A DNA stretch of 64,000 nt from a virus: the IMG/VR virus record IMGVR_UViG_3300046733_001096, positions 14,947 to 78,946 of that record; one strand, 5' to 3'. Made by a program: the position numbers and the translations under genes. The notes beneath the pieces were generated by a model that saw only the letters and a program-made list of their open reading frames with translations, made no database searches and was not told the DNA's origin. Positions 10,781 to 38,718 of this stretch are shown here, piece by piece (position 1 is the first letter of the stretch; every line of letters starts with the position of its first letter).

Positions 10781-10814
10781 TATAGTACTCCTACACTGAG
10801 TGTATTTATAACAT

Positions 10815-16587: not shown

Positions 16588-17844
16588 TTATAATTTTTGT
16601 TTAACCTTCGCTTGTTCATCGAATACCAATATTGGTTCTTCATTTCCTAAAATAAATTCATCTGTAATATGTACAGAACGTAGTCCTTGATTTGCCAATT
16701 TTGGCAATTTGAATTGTATTTGTAAAAGTGATTTTTCAATTACACTTCTCAATCCTCGAGCGCCCGTTTCATCTGTTGTTGCTTTTCTCGCAATCTGGTT
16801 TAGCGCCGAATCTGAAATGATTAATTCTACACCATCAAGTTTAAACAATTTTTCAAACTGTGCAACAATACTATTTTTAGGCTCAGTTAATACTTGTACT
16901 AACTGATTTTCAGTGAGAGCATCAAGGCCAACAATAATTGGAAATCTTCCCATAAATTCTGGGATGACTCCATATTTTATTACATCCTGTGCTTCTACTT
17001 GCTCACGGATATTTATCTTATTTGTCGATTTATCATACACAACAGCACCAAAACCAATACCTGCATTGGATGTTATTCTACGTTCAATAACTTTATCAAT
17101 GCCAACAAATGCGCCACCAACTACAAATAGAATTTTACTTGTATCAACTTCAATCATATCAGTGCCTGGGTGCTTACGTCCGCCCCCAGGCGGAACACGA
17201 ACAACTGAGCCTTCTACAATTTTAAGTAGTGCTTGTTGAACACCTTCGCCACTAACATCTTTTGTGATTGAAATATTTTCGCCTTTTTTCGCTTTCTTAT
17301 CAATTTCATCAATATATATAATACCACACTCGGCTTTTTTAACATCAAAATCTGCTGCCATAAGCAATTTCTGTACTACATTTTCTACATCGTCGCCAAC
17401 ATATCCACTTTCAGTAAGTGATGTTGCATCAATTTGTGCAAATGGCACATCTAAAAATTTTGCAACTGTTTTAGCAAGTAATGTTTTACCAGTACCAGAT
17501 GGTCCCATAACCATTACATTGGATTTATCCAATTCAACGCCATCAGAATCATCAGCGTTTATACGTTTGTAATGATTATATACTGCCACACTAAGGACTT
17601 CTTTAGCTTCGTCTTGTCCAATAATGTGCGCATCTAAGAATTCTTTAATATCTTCCGGTCCAGGAAGAGAACTCATATCCGTTTCGCTTGTAGTGGCAAA
17701 CTTTTCTTTTGAGTCATGTATGATTTCATAGCATAAGTCAACACACTCATTGCAAATAAACTGATTTGGTCCAGCAATGAGTGTTTTAACTATATCCTTT
17801 TCTTTGTTACAAAATGAACAAGTATAATCTTTAGTATCAGTCAA
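16588..17844 (-). CDS. clpX: ATP-dependent Clp protease ATP-binding subunit ClpX
   Basis: CSFC/CNEC zinc finger, GPSGTGKT, GYVG, IDEIDK, RKH, IGF loop, GARGLR; TTG start. Confidence 0.97.
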   Translation of the reverse strand: MTDTKDYTCSFCNKEKDIVKTLIAGPNQFICNECVDLCYEIIHDSKEKFATTSETDMSSLPGPEDIKEFLDAHIIGQDEAKEVLSVAVYNHYKRINADDSDGVELDKSNVMVMGPSGTGKTLLAKTVAKFLDVPFAQIDATSLTESGYVGDDVENVVQKLLMAADFDVKKAECGIIYIDEIDKKAKKGENISITKDVSGEGVQQALLKIVEGSVVRVPPGGGRKHPGTDMIEVDTSKILFVVGGAFVGIDKVIERRITSNAGIGFGAVVYDKSTNKINIREQVEAQDVIKYGVIPEFMGRFPIIVGLDALTENQLVQVLTEPKNSIVAQFEKLFKLDGVELIISDSALNQIARKATTDETGARGLRSVIEKSLLQIQFKLPKLANQGLRSVHITDEFILGNEEPILVFDEQAKVKQKL

Positions 17845-21062: not shown

Positions 21063-21755
21063 CTATCCATGTTTTTTACTTTGAACTTTCATTTTTCTTG
21101 TTTGCCATGGCACTGTATCTTCAAACATATTCACAACTTCGTCACCTTGATATGCTTCGATAAGTTTCCACCAAGGCACAATTAACAAGTGTGATTTGAG
21201 AATCATACGTTCATTTTCTGTATCATTTACAATACCATGATAGCGATTTACATTTAAAAAGTTAGGATTAAAATATTCATGTGTTTCTAATTTTTCACCG
21301 ACACTATGCGTTCCGTCTTCTTGTTCCAAATGTTCATAAAAACTTATTTCTGTTTTGCCGCGCAATGGGGTATTGAATGCACTTAGTGCTCTAAAGTGAT
21401 GTGCAGTATGCGGCTCTAAATTACCGCCAGGAGGCATCCAAATAAATGTAAAACGCATACAGTGTTTAATTTCATCCCAATTCAATGTTACACCGCAGTT
21501 ATTTGCAATGTTTGTAATCCTTTGAAATATTTCATTCCAAATTTGAATGTTACAGTCATAGCAGACATTGTAAATTTTTTGCTTGGTGCTATCCATTCCT
21601 ACCGTACCGTGATCGCCAAATTTGTCTTTAATTTTTTGGTCAAAGAAGTTATTGAGTTCGTCTTGATCTGCTAAAAATCCATCATAACCTTTGGTTTCAG
21701 CAAACCTATCCTCATATCTATATCTTAGTTCGTTCACTTTATTCCTCCATAACAA
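21063..21755 (-). CDS. DSBH/cupin oxygenase-like protein (HxA motif)
   Basis: MPPGGNLEPHTAH...NTPL...HGIVN..ERMIL; true start probably GTG near 21737. Confidence 0.6.
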   Translation of the reverse strand: MLWRNKVNELRYRYEDRFAETKGYDGFLADQDELNNFFDQKIKDKFGDHGTVGMDSTKQKIYNVCYDCNIQIWNEIFQRITNIANNCGVTLNWDEIKHCMRFTFIWMPPGGNLEPHTAHHFRALSAFNTPLRGKTEISFYEHLEQEDGTHSVGEKLETHEYFNPNFLNVNRYHGIVNDTENERMILKSHLLIVPWWKLIEAYQGDEVVNMFEDTVPWQTRKMKVQSKKHG

Positions 21756-22597
21756 TGTTCATAATCAAAACTTAATCTATACAAATAACGATCACCTTCT
21801 ACTGCATTACGTTTATGAATACTATGAAACTGATCCATAAAAATAAAATCGCCAGGCTGCCAATCGTCATGGTGCCAAATATATTTGTCTTGGAAAATAT
21901 GTGCCATTAGTTTGTCAATAATAAGTTCTTTATCCAACTTCTCTTCTGGTTTGTCTCTTAACCACATCTCTCTAATATAATGAAATGTAAAATATAATCC
22001 TTCGTCCCCATCGTATGGATGCGTATATACCAAAGGCTTTGTTACGCCATATTTAAAATCTCTTGTGGCACCTTGAAACATTTTAAGTTCTTTATCGTCT
22101 TTGTCTAAGTCATAGAATGTTCCATTTTCAAATTTAAATGTACAATCTATTTGCTTATAGAAATTTTTATCTTCATCACATAAATCTTTGTATGCTTGTC
22201 TTGTGTCACAAAAACTAGTTACACTATTTTCGCCTGGTCTGACACAGTAAAGAGCCACACAGCATTCTTTACCACTTTTCCTGCCATTGCCATTACTATG
22301 CCAGTCTAATTCTTTGTCTGCAAAGATACCAATCTTGTCGCCATCTTTGCGTTCGTTTGTTACTCTAAACAAACCAGGATAATCTGGGTGCATAAAAAAT
22401 TGATTTGGTTTAAGTACATTGCCAATTAATTCACATACTCTTAGTATACCAGATTCATCTAGATTTTGATTTCTAACGAGTACTACATTATCTTTTACAA
22501 TGTTTTTACCCCAATCTCTAATTTCTGAGTCACTCATTGTGTTAAAGTCTACGTTATATTGCACAGCATCCATTTGCATTAATTCTCTTCTCCTCAA
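21734..22597 (-). CDS. TauD/TfdA family dioxygenase
   Basis: VVLVRNQ, WHSN, TSFCD...AY, PLV.THP, W.PGD..MD...IHKR. Confidence 0.85.
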   Translation of the reverse strand: MRRRELMQMDAVQYNVDFNTMSDSEIRDWGKNIVKDNVVLVRNQNLDESGILRVCELIGNVLKPNQFFMHPDYPGLFRVTNERKDGDKIGIFADKELDWHSNGNGRKSGKECCVALYCVRPGENSVTSFCDTRQAYKDLCDEDKNFYKQIDCTFKFENGTFYDLDKDDKELKMFQGATRDFKYGVTKPLVYTHPYDGDEGLYFTFHYIREMWLRDKPEEKLDKELIIDKLMAHIFQDKYIWHHDDWQPGDFIFMDQFHSIHKRNAVEGDRYLYRLSFDYEHCYGGIK

Positions 22598-28535: not shown

Positions 28536-28541
28536 ATTCTA

Positions 28542-28570
28542 TTTATAACATATTTTAATAGCGTTGTCAA
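28542..28570 (-). promoter_or_regulatory. tmRNA promoter TTGACA-N17-TATAAA, whose -10 also reads as late TATAAATA
   Basis: Direct sequence. Confidence 0.75.
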
Positions 28571-29579: not shown

Positions 29580-29678
29580 ATTATTTCTCCTCTGCTTGAT
29601 GGCTTTACCCCATCGCTCACGTTAAAGATAGGCTCGACGTTGCCTACACATTATTTATAACATATTATAATGGTAATT

Positions 29679-30261: not shown

Positions 30262-30957
30262 TCAAGTCCTGATAATGTTATGCTTGCGATCCATAAACAT
30301 CTTTGCTGTTTCAACTGCTACTGCTGCATCCCTGCAATACGCATCTGCGCCAATTGCTTTTCCAAATTCTTCATTCAATGGAGCACCTCCTACTAATATA
30401 GTATAATCATCACGCATACCCTTTTCAGTCATTACATCAATAACAACCTTCATATATGGCATCGTTGTTGTAAGTAACGCACTCATACCTAATATATCTG
30501 GATTATGTTCTTCAATTGCATCAAGGTAAGCCTGTACATCATTATTAATACCAATGTCATATACATCAAACCCAGCACCTTCCATCATCATGCCAACTAG
30601 ATTTTTGCCAATGTCATGTATGTCACCTTTAACTGTACCGATAACCATAGTTCCAACTTGTGGTGCACCAGTCTCAGCAAGAAGCGGTTTGAGAATAGAC
30701 ATTCCACCTTTCATTGCATTTGCTGCTAGTAATACTTCTGGAACAAATAATATACCATCACGGAAGTCTATGCCCACAATAGTCATTCCAGCAACTAATG
30801 ATTCTGTCAATACACGATATGGTTCCCAACCACGTTCTAAAAGAATATTAGTACCGTCTTCGACTTCCTCTTTGAGTCCATCGTAGAGATCATCCCCCAT
30901 TTGAATTACAAGTTCATCATCAGATAACTCTGACAATATAATATCATCATCTTCCAT
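30262..30957 (-). CDS. stand-alone cobalamin-binding (corrinoid) protein, MetH B12-domain type
   Basis: GMTIVG.DFRDGILFVPEVL, TVKGDIHDIGKNLV, MSALLTTTM, VGGAP. Confidence 0.93.
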   Translation of the reverse strand: MEDDDIILSELSDDELVIQMGDDLYDGLKEEVEDGTNILLERGWEPYRVLTESLVAGMTIVGIDFRDGILFVPEVLLAANAMKGGMSILKPLLAETGAPQVGTMVIGTVKGDIHDIGKNLVGMMMEGAGFDVYDIGINNDVQAYLDAIEEHNPDILGMSALLTTTMPYMKVVIDVMTEKGMRDDYTILVGGAPLNEEFGKAIGADAYCRDAAVAVETAKMFMDRKHNIIRT

Positions 30958-31003
30958 TTCTGTTCCTCACTTATATAGATTATTATATCTATTTATAAGC
31001 AAT

Positions 31004-31832: not shown

Positions 31833-31979
31833 TATTATATTTCCTTTTAAACAAAAAATATGAGCAGGTATTAACTGCTCATACTACTCTACTTATACTA
31901 ATATAATACATTTTTGCTTAATTATCAAGAGGGTATGAAACTAATACTGACGATTGTGTTATTTATATCACACCTTAAA

Positions 31980-32231: not shown

Positions 32232-32383
32232 TCAGATTTCCAGATAGTCCAGATGCCATAAGCAATCGCTGCATACGCAATTAAATCAACTGGTACAATA
32301 AGCATTGCGATCCCAGTTGCAACCAATGCAGCACCGTCGAGTGTTGTACGTTCTTTTAGTCTATTTTTAATCCAATTAATCAT
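32228..32383 (-). CDS. small 2-TM membrane protein (holin-like size and topology)
   Basis: Manual translation MINWIKNRLKERTTLDGAALVATGIAMLIVPVDLIAYAAIAYGIWTIWKSE. Confidence 0.65.
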   Translation of the reverse strand: MINWIKNRLKERTTLDGAALVATGIAMLIVPVDLIAYAAIAYGIWTIWKSE

Positions 32384-33305
32384 TTTTTTTCTCCTCTAAT
32401 AATTTATTATAAAATAGTTCTTCATCTGGACAATTATTATGTTCAATTTGAATAGTTGTATGTACTATTTTATAATTATCGATTAACAGTTTCTTGGTAT
32501 TATATATTGTATCATCACATTCGCCATCATCCAATATATTAATGTGCATAGCGGCTGAAATTTGCCCGCTTGCTAATTCCCATATATGTATATGGTGAAC
32601 ATTATTAACATGATCCACATTTGTCATAATGTCTTTTACTATAACATCAATGTCGATATGTTCTGGTTTTCCAGTCATTAGTATTCTAATACAATCTTTT
32701 AATAATTCCCATCCACTTTTTAATATTAAACTGGCAAGGACTACACTTATAATAGGATCAATATAATACCAATCAGTAAAGTATATAACAATACCACCAA
32801 TTATAGCACCGACACTGCCTAAAATATCAAGTAAGATATGAAGTATCACCCCACGCATATTGATATTGTGTCCATCATGATGATGATGCACTACTTTAAA
32901 TAATATCAAATTAACGATTAGTCCAGTGATTGCGATTGGCAACATCCAATATATATCAACCATTTCAGGATTTAATATTCTATATATTGCTTCATATATT
33001 ATATACGCAAATAGTCCTATCCACATTAACGCATTTAAAAATGCAGCAATAACTTCCGCTCTCATAAATCCATATGAGTATGTTTCAGTTGGTGGTTTGC
33101 GACCTATCCAAAATCCAAATACTGCGATAATCATTGCCAATGCGTCAGTTGAAAGATGTAATGCATCACTTAGTAATGCAAGTGAATTACTTATATGAGC
33201 ACCAAATAATTCAATGACAACAAACATTACTAAAATTAAAATGCTTATTTTTAGTGCACGTTCTTCTTTGCCTGCTTTTCTGATATGATACTGATTATGT
33301 TTCAT
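32376..33305 (-). CDS. cation diffusion facilitator (CzcD/ZitB-like) transporter
   Basis: SLALLSDALH, YSYG..RAE, HHHHDGH, HILLD, HHIHIW, HTTIQIE. Confidence 0.92.
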   Translation of the reverse strand: MKHNQYHIRKAGKEERALKISILILVMFVVIELFGAHISNSLALLSDALHLSTDALAMIIAVFGFWIGRKPPTETYSYGFMRAEVIAAFLNALMWIGLFAYIIYEAIYRILNPEMVDIYWMLPIAITGLIVNLILFKVVHHHHDGHNINMRGVILHILLDILGSVGAIIGGIVIYFTDWYYIDPIISVVLASLILKSGWELLKDCIRILMTGKPEHIDIDVIVKDIMTNVDHVNNVHHIHIWELASGQISAAMHINILDDGECDDTIYNTKKLLIDNYKIVHTTIQIEHNNCPDEELFYNKLLEEKKND

Positions 33306-34218
33306 TAGTTTTTTTCTTTATATTATATAGTTCTCTGATACCATTTTCAATACTGATAGATGGGCTCCATCCAAGAAGTTTACTTGCTTTAAATATGTCA
33401 GCAAGTGTTTCACTCGCATATCCTTTGGGTTTCTCTTGATATTCTATTTCTAGATTAGGAAAAAACTCTCGCAATATTTCAACTACTTGATTTACAGAAA
33501 CGTTTTCTCCTGTCCCCACATTAAAAATTTCACTCTTTACTTTAGATTCCATACTTGCAATACATGCACGTGCTACATCACTAACGTGTATGTAATCTCT
33601 TCTATATTCACCATCACCGTGGACTGTCAATGGTGTATTTTCATTAGCCATGCGATAAAATCTACTAATCATTAATCCATTGGTATCATCCGATGGCTGT
33701 TCATCGCCATATACTGTGAAAAAACGCAATACATTATAATTTAGTCCAAAAACGTTTTTATATTGTTTACACAATTGCTCACCAAATAACTTAGTCATTG
33801 CATAATAATTTAATGGATCAGGTTTATGAAATGGTTTATGAGGTATGGGATTATTTCCATATATACTTGATGAACTTGAAAACACAAATTTACGAATTCC
33901 CACCGCGTGTGATGCAGTCAACATATTACGTGTTCCAGTAACATTTATATCAAAATATAAGTCCGGATCAATAAAACTATCTGGTATTCGTGTCTTTGCT
34001 GCCAGATGAATAACAAAATCTTTGCCAGCAGTTGCCATTATGCACTTGGCGGCACTTTGTATGTCGCCCTTAATATACTTTACCATTTTAAAATCATTGG
34101 GCTTTTCAGCAATGTCCAAAACAGTTACTTCATAACCTTTTCTTAATAATTGCCTGACAACTTCTCTGCCCACAAAACCAGCGCCGCCAGTTACAAGAAC
34201 TTTACCTTTTGCTAACAT
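33295..34218 (-). CDS. NAD-dependent epimerase/dehydratase
   Basis: VTGGAGFVG, HLAA, SSSSIYG, YAMTK, RDYIHVSD. Confidence 0.92.
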   Translation of the reverse strand: MLAKGKVLVTGGAGFVGREVVRQLLRKGYEVTVLDIAEKPNDFKMVKYIKGDIQSAAKCIMATAGKDFVIHLAAKTRIPDSFIDPDLYFDINVTGTRNMLTASHAVGIRKFVFSSSSSIYGNNPIPHKPFHKPDPLNYYAMTKLFGEQLCKQYKNVFGLNYNVLRFFTVYGDEQPSDDTNGLMISRFYRMANENTPLTVHGDGEYRRDYIHVSDVARACIASMESKVKSEIFNVGTGENVSVNQVVEILREFFPNLEIEYQEKPKGYASETLADIFKASKLLGWSPSISIENGIRELYNIKKKTNET

Positions 34219-34400
34219 ATGAATTCTTTCTTAATTTCTTGATTCAACATATTTAGTCTATTAACGTTTGTATCATTATAACAGAATAATAACCAAATAG
34301 CAAGCATTATTTAACTTGACGGAGTGTCACAGTTGCACTACACGCATACCGAGTCTTCGCAAAATGCAGTTGTTTTTAGTGTTTTTTAGTGTTATATTAC

Positions 34401-34490
34401 TATAAATAAAAGTGTAAGATAAGCGACCTCAGCTTATAAAAAATGAGTGGCACTGGGAAAGACTAGGGTATTGCTTCCCTCAAGCATCAA
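34401..34490 (+). promoter_or_regulatory. late promoter TATAAATA followed by a putative structured 5' leader
   Basis: TATAAATA at 34401-34408; possible stems AAGCGA/TTGCTT, CTCA/TGAG, CTGG/CTAG. Confidence 0.45.
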
Positions 34491-34508
34491 ACAATTTGGA
34501 GAAACTGA

Positions 34509-34703
34509 ATGACACTAAACCTATTTAGTGCCCTAGCAAATCTTTTTGGAGGATTTCCTAATAGGGCAACAAAACGCTCAGACTTAATGACTTGGGCAAA
34601 AACAGAGTATGCACGTGATTGGGAATTTGCTTACCAATACATGCTTGATAACAGTGGCAAAGCGCCATCACACAGACACACACAAGGAATAACACATGAT
34701 TAA
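34509..34703 (+). CDS. small hypothetical protein
   Basis: SD GGAG; DLMTWAKTEY..DW.FAY motif. Confidence 0.7.
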   Translation: MTLNLFSALANLFGGFPNRATKRSDLMTWAKTEYARDWEFAYQYMLDNSGKAPSHRHTQGITHD

Positions 34704-34932
34704 TAAACTAGTAATAGCATACAAAAATTTTAGAACCGAAATGGATTATAGAAAGAAAGTTCGTACAACAATCAAAGAACTGTCTGCACTTTCAAACTAT
34801 GAACTAAATGATATCGGAATTTCACGTGGTGAAATATATAATATTGCAATCACATCATATAATAAACCAGAACGTCTAGTAGTTGAAGATATTGAAATAA
34901 CAGTAAATGAAAATCTAAGAGGGGCAGTATAA
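34696..34932 (+). CDS. DUF1127 (YjiS-like) small protein
   Basis: RTTIKELSALSNYELNDIGISRGEI. Confidence 0.88.
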   Translation: MINKLVIAYKNFRTEMDYRKKVRTTIKELSALSNYELNDIGISRGEIYNIAITSYNKPERLVVEDIEITVNENLRGAV

Positions 34933-35108
34933 TGACTACATTAGTAATGGAATATACGGTAAATCCTTTTTGGAATGCTCTTAAAGTATTTGGTCGTGGC
35001 ACATGGAACTTCTTAGAGTCAGTGGGATATGCAAGAGCCGCTGCTGAACTACATCGTCAAGGCTTCTACAAAGAAGCTAAAGACTTGATGTTAATGGACA
35101 GGAGTTGA
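34932..35108 (+). CDS. small protein (58 aa)
   Basis: Manual translation ...[26 protein letters not shown]; TAATG coupling. Confidence 0.75.
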
Positions 35109-35112
35109 TACA

Positions 35113-35337
35113 ATGACAGGTGATATAGCAACTATGGGCGCAATGATTGGCGCCGGACTAGCAACATTAGGAATGGGTGGTGCTGCAATCGCAGTAGGAA
35201 TTATTGTCGGTAGTGTATTTAAAGTTATGCCTAAAAAGCCTGACAACGGAACAATGTTTATTGGTGTTGCATTTGCAGAAGCATTAGGTATCTTTGCATT
35301 CTTAGTAGCACTACTACTAATGTTTGCAGTTGTATAA
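35113..35337 (+). CDS. atpE: F0F1 ATP synthase subunit c homolog with altered loop
   Basis: IGAGLA..GMGGAA..VG and [27 protein letters not shown]. Confidence 0.9.
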
Positions 35338-35558
35338 TGGTTGGTGAACAACATATGGAAATATCAGCACAAGTAGTGCAGAAGTTAGGTTTCTATATGT
35401 TTGTGATAATGACTTCACTACTAATAATATGCATAGGATTTGGTTTCTATGCAGTAATTGATAAGTTCAAAGAACCAAATTGGAAAGAGGCATGCCTTGA
35501 AAAGGGTGGAGTACCAGTTCAACTAGATAAATCAATGTTTGATTGTAAAGGAATATAA
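35337..35558 (+). CDS. small membrane protein
   Basis: One TM helix, C-terminal CLEKGG...DC. Confidence 0.65.
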   Translation: MVGEQHMEISAQVVQKLGFYMFVIMTSLLIICIGFGFYAVIDKFKEPNWKEACLEKGGVPVQLDKSMFDCKGI

Positions 35559-35559
35559 T

Positions 35560-35694
35560 ATGTTAAAAAGATTTGTAAAAGCAATGGAATACCGTTCATA
35601 CTGTATGGCAATTCGTGAATTACGCAACAAAGGCTTATATAAAGAAGCACAACGTGTCAGTGAATATAAGCACAATATGTATCCTACTACTTAG
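35560..35694 (+). CDS. small protein (44 aa)
   Basis: Manual translation MLKRFVKAMEYRSYCMAIRELRNKGLYKEAQRVSEYKHNMYPTT. Confidence 0.65.
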   Translation: MLKRFVKAMEYRSYCMAIRELRNKGLYKEAQRVSEYKHNMYPTT

Positions 35695-35708
35695 TAGTAT
35701 GATCGAAG

Positions 35709-35960
35709 TTAATTAGGACCAGCAATGAAATGTAGTTTGAGCATTATGCCTTCTACATCTGCTGGTTCAAGATAAGGTATAACATCATCTCCGGTATGTA
35801 TACCAGGTAGTTGAACAAAATTATTATCCTTGAACACTGCAATTTCATAAAGTTTTTTGCCTGGTTCTTGAATCACACTCAAATCATAATTACCAAAAGA
35901 CCGTTTGGCTTGAAAGTGTTGCGGTCGTATTTCATTAAATTGTAAATCACAAAAATTCAT
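35709..35960 (-). CDS. hypothetical protein
   Basis: YDLSVI...LYEIAV...DDVIPYL. Confidence 0.65.
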   Translation of the reverse strand: MNFCDLQFNEIRPQHFQAKRSFGNYDLSVIQEPGKKLYEIAVFKDNNFVQLPGIHTGDDVIPYLEPADVEGIMLKLHFIAGPN

Positions 35961-36168
35961 CTAACGTATCCTCAAATTTTTCTTCTATTAATTTAATATG
36001 CTTGCATTTTTTAAATGCCGGGCAATCACAAGTAAACCCCTTATCAGTCATTTTAATTGTATATATATTACCCTTGCTGCCTGATACATACCATTCAGTA
36101 TCAACTGCCCAATGACCCTTAGTATTAATCAGGTCACTGGGAAATATACGTGGTCCATACTTTGCCAT
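35947..36168 (-). CDS. SWIM zinc-finger protein
   Basis: GSKGNIY...CDCPAF..CKHI. Confidence 0.8.
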   Translation of the reverse strand: MAKYGPRIFPSDLINTKGHWAVDTEWYVSGSKGNIYTIKMTDKGFTCDCPAFKKCKHIKLIEEKFEDTLDEFL

Positions 36169-36509
36169 TATATAGTTTCAAATCCAAAGTTTGCTACAAC
36201 TGAACGATTGCCATCAGCATCTTCAATAATATTTCCAACTGAAATACTAGACATTTTTCCAAACCGCTCAATACGATCTTCTGGTCCAATATTTCCTACT
36301 TCAAAAACATGATCAAGGCTGTCAGCAATAATGTTTGCAACATGAGTATAACATTCATCAAATTTCATAGCAGCCTCTTTAAAATTTCCAAATGTGGCAT
36401 CTGCATATGCAGTTGCTTTTTCGTGACAATTCCAGCCCTCTTTATTAACTAGTTCTACTAGTTTTTCATCTAATTGAATTTGATAAACTTTGAAAACTTG
36501 AACTGACAT
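36168..36509 (-). CDS. hypothetical early protein
   Basis: LDHVFE..N...SSISVGNII; GANTC promoter upstream. Confidence 0.7.
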   Translation of the reverse strand: MSVQVFKVYQIQLDEKLVELVNKEGWNCHEKATAYADATFGNFKEAAMKFDECYTHVANIIADSLDHVFEVGNIGPEDRIERFGKMSSISVGNIIEDADGNRSVVANFGFETI

Positions 36510-38040: not shown

Positions 38041-38718
38041 TCAACTTCTTTGATCTTTAATCCAGTTCTTGGCCTGTGGCATAGATGGGGACTTAACTAA
38101 AAATTTATCAATTGCTCTATCAACTTCTAAGAAATTTGATTTACGTTCTGGATCTTCTAGGCCACCAGAGTTATCAACAATATGAAAATTTCCTGCGCCG
38201 AATAACTGCTGAAACTTCATAAGATTCTGCTGTACTGCTTGCCACATCTTAGTCACTTGTTGTCTTGGTAAACTTCTAGGACGATTTTCATTGCGCTCTT
38301 GTGCGACATCTTCACTTGTATTAACAAATAACATCATTGTTTCATAGCCAAGTTCTTTTAATTGTTCATTTGCTTTTTGAACTTTTGCTACATCTTTGCC
38401 AGTGCCATCAATAATAAGTCCTAGACGGCCTTCGATATGCAATTGTTGTTTATTCTTTGTAATCTGTTTTGCACGATTACGAATTTCTTGTCCTTCATCA
38501 GAATAGATATCATCTGGAGTCAATTCTTTTCCTGCTTTATCCATCATATATTCATAAATGTCATCTGAATTTACTGTTCTGAGACCAGTTCCTTTGAGCA
38601 TCTTATTAGCAACAAAACTTTTGCCACTGCCAGGGCCGCCTGCCAGAAATACGGCTTTGAAAATATGAGGATCATTCACACCCTCTTCAATTGATTGTAG
38701 GATTTCATTGACACGCAT
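38041..38718 (-). CDS. zeta-toxin-like P-loop kinase, putative packaged protein
   Basis: MRVNEIL..IEEG leader; AGGPGSGKS, VNSD, IIDGTG, RN..R. Confidence 0.75.
   Translation of the reverse strand: MRVNEILQSIEEGVNDPHIFKAVFLAGGPGSGKSFVANKMLKGTGLRTVNSDDIYEYMMDKAGKELTPDDIYSDEGQEIRNRAKQITKNKQQLHIEGRLGLIIDGTGKDVAKVQKANEQLKELGYETMMLFVNTSEDVAQERNENRPRSLPRQQVTKMWQAVQQNLMKFQQLFGAGNFHIVDNSGGLEDPERKSNFLEVDRAIDKFLVKSPSMPQAKNWIKDQRS

What the first reader, a model, noticed from the sequence alone, without database searches (positions are those of the whole stretch)
35113..35337. Lone ATP synthase c subunit that keeps the proton-binding Glu but has lost the R(N/Q)P coupling loop
Both helices are Rhodobacteraceae-like, including FAEALGIF. 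The polar loop that normally carries the conserved Arg-(Gln/Asn)-Pro contacting F1 gamma/epsilon reads [13 protein letters not shown]. By my recollection of host sequences it is about five residues shorter. No other atp gene is in the window. If it entered host c-rings it could uncouple or jam ATP synthase, or cause a proton leak for lysis timing or superinfection exclusion: a possible dominant-negative mimic rather than a metabolic helper.
Basis: partly seen in the sequence, partly recalled or inferred. Interest (0 to 1): 0.8.

Follow-up and report, generated by a model that had tools for sequence, protein, structure and literature searches.

The report
Phage rotor subunit lacking F1 dock
An uncultured marine phage carries a captured copy of the ATP-synthase rotor protein (subunit c) whose membrane helices and proton-binding glutamate are almost unchanged. 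Its F1-facing cap is rewritten and shortened, and it always travels as a removable two-gene unit with a phage-only one-helix membrane protein, so it probably tampers with the host's energy machine rather than supplying a spare part.

Summary
Window 35113-35337 (+) encodes a 74-aa F-type c subunit (Pfam E 8e-13) in a large phage record, and no other atp gene was found. Its closest cellular relatives are Rhodobacterales AtpE (65% identity or less).

- All 80 best cellular matches keep R41-N42-P43. None of 81 viral copies does.
- The window's loop reads K41-K42-P43-D44, followed by a 5-residue deletion. Pro is kept, so "lost RNP" is slightly overstated for this copy. Basal viral forms read A-M-P-H-R.
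- The membrane part, including the Glu, matches the host's almost residue for residue. dN/dS is 0.04 in helix 2.
- The gene overlaps by one base (TAATG) a 73-aa single-pass orphan protein. The two are linked in 78/78 and 74/74 loci.
- Near-isogenic phages lack exactly this ~490-bp pair.
- It appears in contigs from four metatranscriptome studies.

My best reading (confidence 0.4, inferred) is a late-expressed accessory module that makes proton-carrying but F1-uncoupled Fo rotors. The rivals are a still-coupled alternative rotor, an Fo-independent ring or channel, and a rotor jam.

This scan has reported the same family on at least five other genomes. I found no paper describing it.

The parts
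34401..34408 (+). TATAAATA, a T4-type late-promoter-like motif 101 nt upstream of the first ORF of the plus-strand operon
   Evidence: there are 9 matches in the window, which is not more than chance overall. Six of them lie in short intergenic gaps directly upstream of co-oriented genes, this one included. Only 18 of 48 distinct related loci have the motif within 1 kb upstream. Late expression is therefore an inference.
34509..34703 (+). 64-aa ORF, first gene of the small-protein operon (no family)
   Evidence: Conserved upstream in several related loci.
34696..34932 (+). 78-aa DUF1127 protein
   Evidence: PF06568, E 2.9e-10. Present upstream of the c gene in nearly all related loci.
34932..35108 (+). 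58-aa small protein with the motif G-Y/R-A/S-R-A-A-A-E-L...G..KEAK (family A4)
   Evidence: Alignment A4. 502 viral stretches encode relatives. 71 of the 80 best lack the c gene, so this gene belongs to an older cassette.
35113..35337 (+). 74-aa F-type ATP synthase c subunit homologue. Helix 1 is residues 2-38, the loop is 39-44 (M-P-K-K-P-D) and helix 2 is 45-72. E56 is encoded at 35278-35280.
   Evidence: Pfam. Best PDB match is 5DN6, Paracoccus c12, E 1e-14. AF2 model has pLDDT 81.6. Alignments A1 and A2. Column table.
35221..35253 (+). Rewritten and shortened cytoplasmic cap (residues 37-47, [11 protein letters not shown]), replacing the host's invariant G-A-L-R-N-P-x-A-A-x-x-Q-T-A
   Evidence: the host cap columns are about 100% conserved in 72 distinct cellular sequences. 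The viral residue sets are disjoint from the host's at positions 30, 34, 37, 38, 41, 42 and 44-46.
35337..35558 (+). 73-aa partner. It has one long helix (3-44, TM core pLDDT 90-95) and a small C-terminal Cys-containing domain. Its start overlaps the c gene's stop codon (TAATG).
   Evidence: It lies directly downstream of c in 78/78 loci that have downstream DNA. c lies upstream in 74/74 partner-anchored loci that have upstream DNA. It is an orphan: only 8 hits among 1.84 billion representatives.
35560..35694 (+). 44-aa paralogue of the 58-aa protein (R-E-L-R-N-K-G-L-Y-K-E-A), last gene of the operon
   Evidence: In phages without the c-plus-partner pair it directly abuts the 58-aa gene.
35065..35556 (+). 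Roughly 490-bp presence/absence segment: the 3' end of the 58-aa gene, the c gene and the partner gene
   Evidence: BLASTN: loci L245 and L247 match the window at 91% (33902-35064) and 95% (35557-36500), with only about 36 nt in place of 35065-35556. One RNA-library contig in X3 joins 35064 to 35580 (table 5).

Best explanation
Shown:
- The gene is a real, long-maintained, phage-borne descendant of a Rhodobacterales atpE.
- It keeps the membrane-embedded hairpin, the helix-1 Gly packing motif and the proton-binding Glu almost residue for residue.
- The host's invariant F1-facing cap (G38...R41-N42-P43...A51) has been replaced in every viral copy. In this lineage it is also shortened by five residues.
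- It occurs only together with a phage-specific single-pass membrane protein.
- The pair is a discrete accessory insertion in an older small-protein (DUF1127) operon. That operon carries a late-promoter-like motif.

Inferred mechanism: late in infection the two proteins insert into the host inner membrane. The viral c subunit assembles into rings, alone or mixed with host c, and these rings still engage host subunit a and carry protons. They dock F1 gamma/epsilon poorly or not at all. The result would be Fo rotors uncoupled from ATP synthesis, that is, a phage-controlled dissipation or re-tuning of proton-motive force. Possible uses are lysis timing, exclusion of superinfecting phages, or faster respiration.

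The partner has one conserved helix face, so I infer that it packs against the viral c subunit to assemble, stabilise or gate it.
For: - Homology and fold.
- Clean dichotomy: 0 of 81 viral copies carry R-(N/Q)-P, against 80 of 80 best cellular matches.
- Divergence is confined to the cytoplasmic third. From F49 to A72, 24 of 26 positions share the host's majority residue, and A-F-A-E-A-L-G-I-F is invariant in both sets.
- Purifying selection: dN/dS is 0.15 in helix 1, 0.16 in the loop and 0.04 in helix 2, with dS about 1. GC3 is 0.23, so the gene is fully ameliorated to phage composition.
- A single viral clan: SH-aLRT 90, or 74 with the loop columns removed. Full-length rewritten loops are basal and the short loop is derived.
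- No phage-encoded a, b, alpha/beta, gamma or epsilon, so any Fo activity must use host parts.
- Reciprocal linkage with the partner. Its invariant residues G18, F22, M25, L28, C32, G36 and V40 lie on one helix face.
- Accessory indel among near-isogenic phages.
- Contigs from metatranscriptome libraries of four studies cover the operon and bridge the c and partner genes.
- Loss of the rotor-F1 connection is known to give Fo-mediated proton leaks. In yeast a 25% depletion of epsilon uncoupled mitochondria fully (PMC3952849).
- From my own recollection, E. coli c R41K/H and Q42E are uncoupled (Fillingame laboratory, 1990s). I did not retrieve these papers here.
Against: - There is no experiment, and no structural or interaction evidence that the viral subunit enters host rings or fails to bind F1.
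- The window's loop keeps K-K-P-D at positions 41-44. KQPE is listed among natural loop motifs (10.1101/2024.02.27.582367), so residual F1 contact cannot be excluded.
- A proton leak would cost a phage that needs ATP for DNA packaging.
- The host is unknown. Its assignment to Rhodobacterales rests on this gene alone.
- The loop itself is under purifying selection, so it has a function of its own and is not merely degraded.
- Expression evidence comes from assembled contigs, which cannot exclude carry-over DNA.
Confidence: 0.4

Rival explanations
1. It is a still-coupled alternative rotor and a true auxiliary metabolic gene. The viral c subunit builds or joins rings that keep driving F1, but with altered stoichiometry or geometry, tuning the H+/ATP ratio to the infected cell's proton-motive force.
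For: - K41-K42-P43-D44 sits at the canonical loop positions in this lineage, and Lys-containing loop motifs exist in nature (10.1101/2024.02.27.582367).
- Helix-1 Gly-to-Ala changes occur only in viral copies: G27A in 41% of them, including this window, and G29A/S in 22%. Such changes can alter ring size (PMC5376962).
- The Glu and helix 2 are perfectly kept.
- The loop is under purifying selection.
Against: - The host cap of about 14 residues is about 100% conserved in 72 distinct cellular sequences and is replaced wholesale in every viral copy.
- Basal viral forms read A41-M42, with no basic residue at position 41.
- The hairpin is five residues shorter on the F1 side.
- An obligate extra partner is not expected for a spare part.
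Confidence: 0.2
2. Its role is independent of Fo. The viral c subunit and its partner form their own ring or channel, for example a leak pore or ion channel comparable to the proposed mitochondrial c-ring leak channel, or a holin-like device. Host subunit a is not involved.
For: - The pair is self-contained, mobile and always linked.
- Both are small membrane proteins in an operon with a late-promoter-like motif.
- The shortened cap with Lys residues would sit flush with the membrane surface.
Against: - Near-identity of the whole of helix 2 and of the carboxylate site to the host sequence, despite dS of about 1, is hard to explain unless host Fo partners (subunit a, host c) are still engaged.
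- No recognisable endolysin or lysis gene lies within about 3 kb.
Confidence: 0.2
3. It is a rotor jam or inhibitor. The viral c subunit carries the partner into host rings, where the partner's helix or C-terminal domain collides with the stator. This would block both ATP synthesis and ATP hydrolysis.
For: - The partner is obligate and has one conserved helix face.
- Dominant-negative c subunits are known in E. coli. This is my recollection and was not retrieved here.
Against: - The simplest jam is loss of the carboxylate, yet E56 and its surroundings are invariant in all 41 distinct viral sequences.
- One subclade has lost the partner's C-terminal domain.
Confidence: 0.12
4. It is a neutral passenger or a decaying captured gene with no function.
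For: It is accessory: closely related phages do without it.
Against: dN/dS is 0.13 with saturated synonymous sites. It is intact in 81 contigs, codon composition is ameliorated, linkage is conserved, and it is present in RNA-library contigs.
Confidence: 0.02

Closest known systems
AtpE (F-type ATP synthase subunit c) of Rhodobacterales/Paracoccaceae; solved example Paracoccus denitrificans c12, PDB 5DN6
   Same: Same fold and family: PF00137, with 5DN6 the best PDB match at E 1e-14. The membrane helices, the Gly motif and the ion-binding Glu are nearly identical. Best cellular identity is 65%.
   Different: - The host-invariant cap G38-A51, including R41-N42, is replaced and is 5 residues shorter.
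- The gene is not in an atp operon.
- It is encoded by a phage at 41% GC (GC3 0.23).
- It is always followed by an orphan single-pass protein.
E. coli subunit c polar-loop mutants (R41, Q42, P43), which are uncoupled (my own recollection; papers not retrieved)
   Same: The same loop positions are altered while the helices and the carboxylate stay intact. The expected phenotype is loss of F1-Fo coupling.
   Different: - These viral forms are natural, selected variants kept by phages.
- They also carry a deletion and changes throughout the cap.
- Their phenotype is untested.
Cyanophage auxiliary metabolic genes that copy a single subunit of a host energy complex (psbA/D1, PTOX, plastocyanin)
   Same: A host-derived single membrane subunit is carried by T4-like marine phages and is presumed to insert into host machinery. 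A related phage carries an alternative oxidase at the same cassette.
   Different: Those genes keep the residues that define their function and are read as spare parts. Here the part that couples to the rest of the enzyme has been specifically rewritten.
Fo-mediated proton leak after loss of central-stalk subunits in yeast (PMC3952849)
   Same: It is a functional analogue. Rotor rings disconnected from F1 dissipate membrane potential, and a minority of uncoupled complexes is enough.
   Different: There the cause is depletion of a stalk subunit. Here it would be a modified rotor subunit supplied in trans.
N-type ATPase c subunit (Burkholderia pseudomallei c17, PMC5376962)
   Same: A second, divergent c subunit coexisting with the housekeeping one, with Gly/Ala motif changes linked to ring size.
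   Different: The N-type subunit keeps the conserved RQPD loop and sits in a full operon with its own a, b and F1-like genes.

Membership tests
F-type ATP synthase subunit c (PF00137 / AtpE) | Sequence match to the family model above the curated cut-off | tested here: met
   48.8 bits against a cut-off of 24, covering model positions 1-60 of 60.
F-type ATP synthase subunit c (PF00137 / AtpE) | Hairpin of two transmembrane helices | tested here: met
   AF2 model: helices 2-38 and 45-72, mean pLDDT 81.6.
F-type ATP synthase subunit c (PF00137 / AtpE) | Ion-binding carboxylate in the middle of helix 2 | tested here: met
   E56 aligns with host E61 and is invariant in 41 viral and 72 cellular distinct sequences.
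F-type ATP synthase subunit c (PF00137 / AtpE) | Gly-rich packing motif in helix 1 | tested here: met
   G13, G15, G20, G22, G23, G29 and G33 are kept. The window has A27 where all 72 cellular sequences have G.
F-type ATP synthase subunit c (PF00137 / AtpE) | Conserved polar loop R-(Q/N)-P that contacts F1 gamma/epsilon | tested here: not met
   The window reads K-K-P, followed by a 5-residue deletion. Basal viral forms read A-M-P. No viral copy has Arg41 or Asn/Gln42.
F-type ATP synthase subunit c (PF00137 / AtpE) | Encoded with the other Fo genes (atpB, atpF) | tested here: not met
   No a, b, alpha/beta, gamma or epsilon in the record or in a complete 221-kb relative. The cellular comparator L086 has atpI-B-E-F'-F.
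F-type ATP synthase subunit c (PF00137 / AtpE) | Supports coupled ATP synthesis (complements atpE) | not testable with these tools
   Needs genetics or biochemistry.
Phage auxiliary metabolic gene (host-derived spare part) | Host-derived gene on a bona fide phage genome | tested here: met
   - The record is an IMG/VR virus record.
- The window carries tape-measure-like and virion proteins, a DnaB-like helicase and a primase.
- Relatives carry the T4 Gp23 capsid protein.
- The viral copies form one clan nested beside Rhodobacterales AtpE.
Phage auxiliary metabolic gene (host-derived spare part) | Keeps all the function-defining residues of the host enzyme | tested here: not met
   The F1-facing cap is replaced in every copy.
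Holin / lysis-cassette membrane protein | Small membrane protein adjacent to an endolysin or spanin genes | tested here: not met
   Neighbours within about 3 kb are DUF1127, small orphan proteins, an epimerase and a CDF transporter. No lysis family was detected.
Dominant-negative (poison) subunit of host Fo | Co-assembles with host c and impairs the complex | not testable with these tools
   Only indirect evidence: the ring-forming surfaces are near-identical to the host's.

The most novel reading that the evidence does not exclude
Marine T4-like phages of roseobacter-type hosts carry a mobile two-gene 'uncoupler cartridge'. It consists of a host-mimicking rotor subunit that slips into, or replaces, the host c-ring and still shuttles protons past host subunit a but cannot grip F1, plus a dedicated single-helix partner that assembles or gates it. 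Together they would turn the host ATP synthase into a phage-timed proton valve. This would be a previously undescribed takeover mechanism aimed at the membrane rotor itself.
Probability: 0.35. Interest if true: 0.9.

Novelty: new variant of a known kind. Interest (0 to 1): 0.72.

Why it matters
Phage auxiliary genes for energy metabolism are usually read as spare parts that keep host machinery running. Here a subunit has been edited at exactly the surface that couples proton flow to ATP synthesis, while everything needed to sit in the rotor and bind protons is preserved. It is also paired with a dedicated partner and is gained and lost as a unit.

If the inferred mechanism holds, it would be the first viral factor known to target the Fo rotor. 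It would give a natural tool for separating proton conduction from F1 coupling, and a testable link between phage infection, membrane potential and lysis or superinfection control in abundant marine bacteria.

Databases currently label these genes as ordinary "F0F1 ATP synthase subunit C". Viral and metatranscriptomic surveys may therefore be miscounting them as host energy metabolism.

Tried and rejected
- **Complex prediction.** Three copies of c plus the partner, both given as alignments, scored 0.00, and the tool returned no verdict. This is not evidence for or against binding.
- **The look-up of encoding contigs.** Genomic context came from the search for related loci instead.
- **Partner against cellular Fo small subunits.** hhalign against AtpI-like, b and b' from L086 gave probabilities of 4% or less. 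Pfam found nothing. The ESM Atlas gave only viral "hypothetical protein" clusters below 0.9. A profile search of 1.84 billion representatives returned 8 hits, all within the same family apart from one marginal hit. The partner is absent from 5 of the closest cellular genomes with this query.
- **Cultured phages.** PHROGs has no family for the c gene. tblastn against 50,697 deposited phage genomes found no match.
- **Literature.** Searches found no description of a phage-encoded c subunit. The single K02110 hit concerns eukaryotic phototrophs. One search was a malformed query.
- **Independent host marker.** The window's CDF transporter was searched in 301 Alphaproteobacteria. Identity was 39% or less and no names were given, so it was uninformative. 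One search was a wrong handle.
- **RNA coverage.** The four RNA runs were chosen with this stretch, and only contigs were laid. Depth, and the uncovered flanks at 32.7-34.4 kb and 37.3-39.5 kb, cannot be used to rank expression.
- **Late promoter.** TATAAATA is not enriched in the window overall (9 matches against 11 expected). It lies within 1 kb upstream of c in only 18 of 48 distinct loci.
- **Host contamination or chimera.** Rejected. GC3 is 0.23, the flanks are phage genes, and 81 viral contigs carry the gene.

Full report
**What is there**

Window 35113-35337 (+) is an ORF of 74 codons with an AGGAG ribosome-binding site 9 nt upstream. The product matches Pfam ATP-synt_C end to end (E 8.3e-13, 48.8 bits, cut-off 24). 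Its best match among solved structures is the Paracoccus denitrificans c12 subunit (5DN6, E 1e-14). AlphaFold2, run with 41 viral homologues, gives the expected hairpin: helix 2-38, loop 39-44 (M-P-K-K-P-D) and helix 45-72, with mean pLDDT 81.6.

The window is bases 14947-78946 of a 78.9-kb IMG/VR virus record that CheckV rates 31% complete. GC is 33-39%. The record carries tape-measure-like and virion proteins, a DnaB-like helicase and a primase. Larger relatives that carry the same gene include a 221-kb genome rated 100% complete, and they encode the T4 Gp23 capsid protein.

None of the families for subunits a, b, alpha/beta, gamma or epsilon is found in the record or in four larger relatives. 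The c gene stands alone.

**The loop**

Against Rhodobacterales AtpE (78 aa) the protein has a five-residue gap and no R-N-P.

A scan of one genome for each of 185,579 prokaryote species found 443 relatives. The best 80 are all Rhodobacterales/Paracoccaceae, share at most 65% identity, and all carry RNP. A cellular example, L086, sits in a normal atpI-atpB-atpE-atpF'-atpF operon. A scan of IMG/VR found 81 viral copies, and none has R-(N/Q)-P.

The column-by-column comparison covers 41 distinct viral and 72 distinct cellular sequences.
- The host cap G38-A39-L40-R41-N42-P43-x-A45-A46-x-x-Q49-T50-A51 is essentially invariant in cells and replaced in all viral copies.
- From F49 to A72 (window numbering), 24 of 26 positions share the same majority residue.
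- The block A-F-A-E-A-L-G-I-F around the proton-binding Glu (E56, equivalent to host E61) is invariant in both sets.

HMMER aligns the window's K41-K42-P43-D44 exactly on host R41-N42-P43-S44 and puts the deletion directly after it. A preprint lists RQPD, RQPE, KQPE and RNPS as natural loop motifs (10.1101/2024.02.27.582367). The Pro and a basic residue therefore survive at the canonical positions in this copy.

Two observations argue that this is not simply a conservative variant.
- The hairpin is five residues shorter between the loop and the Glu. This must pull the turn towards the membrane. The model has only 11 helical residues between the start of helix 2 and E56, against about 16-17 in the host.
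- On a tree built without the loop columns, the viral forms with full-length loops (A-M-P-H-R-S, A-V-P-S-K-S) are basal. The short M-P-K-K form is nested and derived. Arg41 and Asn42 were therefore lost first, and the Lys residues appeared later.

**Is it a working gene?**

The 47 distinct viral coding sequences give pooled Nei-Gojobori dN/dS values of 0.15 for helix 1, 0.16 for the loop and 0.04 for helix 2. The overall value is 0.13, with synonymous sites near saturation (dS about 1.07). The loop is also constrained within the short-loop clade (pN 0.155 against pS 0.758). GC3 is 0.23, so the codon composition is fully phage-like.

The viral sequences form one side of a branch against all cellular ones. 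SH-aLRT support is 90, or 74 when the loop columns are left out. This is compatible with a single old capture. The nearest cellular sequences are Paracoccaceae such as Alexandriicola, Thioclava and uncultured marine lineages.

Contigs assembled from metatranscriptome libraries of four different studies cover 34408-35827. One contig with no mismatches spans 35283-35607 and bridges the c and partner genes. Another spans 34945-35404. This is consistent with transcription. Contigs cannot prove it, because carry-over DNA is possible and the runs were chosen with this very stretch.

**The partner and the module**

The c gene's stop codon overlaps the start of the next gene (TAATG at 35335-35339). 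That gene encodes a 73-aa protein with one long helix (3-44, TM core pLDDT 90-95) and a small, low-confidence C-terminal domain that holds two Cys residues.

- A homologue lies within -3 to +5 nt of the c gene in all 78 viral loci that have downstream DNA.
- Searching with the partner finds 75 viral loci. All 74 with upstream DNA carry the c gene.
- Its invariant residues (G18, F22, M25, L28, C32, G36, F37, V40, C53) fall on one face of the helix. This is the usual signature of a helix-helix interface.
- One subclade has lost the C-terminal domain (49-aa forms), so the N-terminal segment and the helix are the core.
- The family is an orphan: 60 clusters among 5.8 billion proteins, 8 hits among 1.84 billion representatives, and no Pfam family.

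Upstream lie a 64-aa ORF, a DUF1127 protein and a 58-aa protein. Downstream lies a 44-aa paralogue of the 58-aa protein.

Searching with the 58-aa family shows that this cassette is much more widespread than the c gene. There are 502 viral stretches, and 71 of the best 80 lack c and its partner. In those loci the 58-aa and 44-aa genes abut directly.

Two such loci (L245, L247) match the window at 91% and 95% nucleotide identity on either side. They have about 36 nt in place of window 35065-35556. One RNA-library contig joins 35064 to 35580. The c gene and its partner are therefore a discrete accessory segment of about 490 bp, present or absent among near-isogenic phages.

A T4-type late-promoter motif, TATAAATA, lies 101 nt upstream of the operon. 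Six of the nine copies in the window sit in intergenic gaps upstream of co-oriented genes. Related loci do not consistently show the motif.

**Interpretation**

The pattern is strict conservation of everything buried in the membrane, the carboxylate included. It comes with wholesale replacement of the surface that contacts the gamma/epsilon foot of F1 in the intact enzyme. This says the protein is still selected to form rings and to take up and release protons. It is no longer selected to couple to F1.

The phage encodes no subunit a, and helix 2 has stayed almost identical to the host's over a long time. The most economical reading is that the protein works with host Fo components.

Retention of the Glu argues against a simple dead-subunit jam. 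The obligate partner and the accessory status argue against a plain spare part.

I therefore favour rotors that carry protons but are uncoupled from F1, giving a phage-controlled drain or re-tuning of proton-motive force late in infection (confidence 0.4). Work in yeast shows that disconnecting the rotor from F1 produces Fo-mediated leaks, and that a partial defect is enough (PMC3952849).

The rivals, with their probabilities and tests, are listed separately:
- a still-coupled rotor of altered stoichiometry (viral-only G27A and G29A/S changes; the Gly-to-Ala effect on ring size is described in PMC5376962);
- an Fo-independent ring or channel;
- a partner-mediated jam.

**Novelty and earlier work**

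This scan had already reported the same gene family on at least five other genomes, with the same general conclusion. It had also noted the six-gene operon on this genome.

I re-derived the main claims independently here: the loop dichotomy, the linkage with the partner, and the insertion into a DUF1127 cassette. New in this report:
- the exact indel boundaries against near-isogenic phages;
- the order of loop evolution;
- region-wise selection values;
- the K-K-P-D caveat;
- the viral-only Gly-to-Ala changes;
- the metatranscriptome contigs.

I found no paper describing a phage-encoded c subunit. No deposited phage genome has a match and PHROGs has no family for it. Public pipelines annotate these genes as ordinary subunit c. 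One sits in a MAG labelled Saprospirales, presumably a mis-binned phage contig.

The host is not established. Its assignment to Rhodobacterales rests on the affinity of this gene alone.

Noticed in passing
L248:1788-2375 (+); also L306: Two related phages have the DUF1127 / 58-aa / 44-aa cassette without c and its partner. They carry an alternative oxidase (PF01786, E 7.5e-78) right after the 44-aa gene. The edge of this cassette seems to be a landing site for different bioenergetic cargo.
   Followed up: partly
window 32376-33305 (-): A phage-encoded cation diffusion facilitator (PF01545 Cation_efflux plus the ZT_dimer domain) with a His-rich loop. A metal-efflux transporter is an unusual auxiliary gene.
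   Followed up: partly
window 30262-30957 (-) and 33295-34218 (-): A two-domain B12-binding protein (PF02607 + PF02310) and an NAD-dependent epimerase/dehydratase lie just upstream of the operon on the opposite strand.
   Followed up: no
window 38041-38718 (-): A 225-aa protein matching Zeta_toxin / AAA_33 P-loop kinase families (E about 3e-14).
   Followed up: no
window 16588-17844 (-) and 21734-22597 (-): A ClpX-like AAA+ protein with the C4 zinc finger, and a TauD/TfdA-family dioxygenase. Both are further host-like genes on the phage.
   Followed up: no
window 34932-35108 (+) and 35560-35694 (+): The 58-aa and 44-aa proteins that flank the c-plus-partner pair are paralogues (shared E-L-x-R-x-G-x-Y-K-E-A). 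In phages without the insertion they are adjacent. In many relatives the 58-aa homologue has a hydrophobic N-terminal stretch, so it may also be membrane-associated.
   Followed up: partly
window 10803-10810, 28540-28547, 29652-29659, 30990-30997, 31960-31967 (all -) and 34401-34408 (+): TATAAATA motifs in short intergenic gaps directly upstream of co-oriented genes. This suggests a T4-like late-promoter system in this phage, although the total count is not above chance.
   Followed up: partly
protein P0221 (cluster of P0157): A 289-aa protein sits in the 90%-identity cluster of the short (55-aa) form of the partner. It may be a fusion or a miscalled ORF on a 2.1-kb contig.
   Followed up: no
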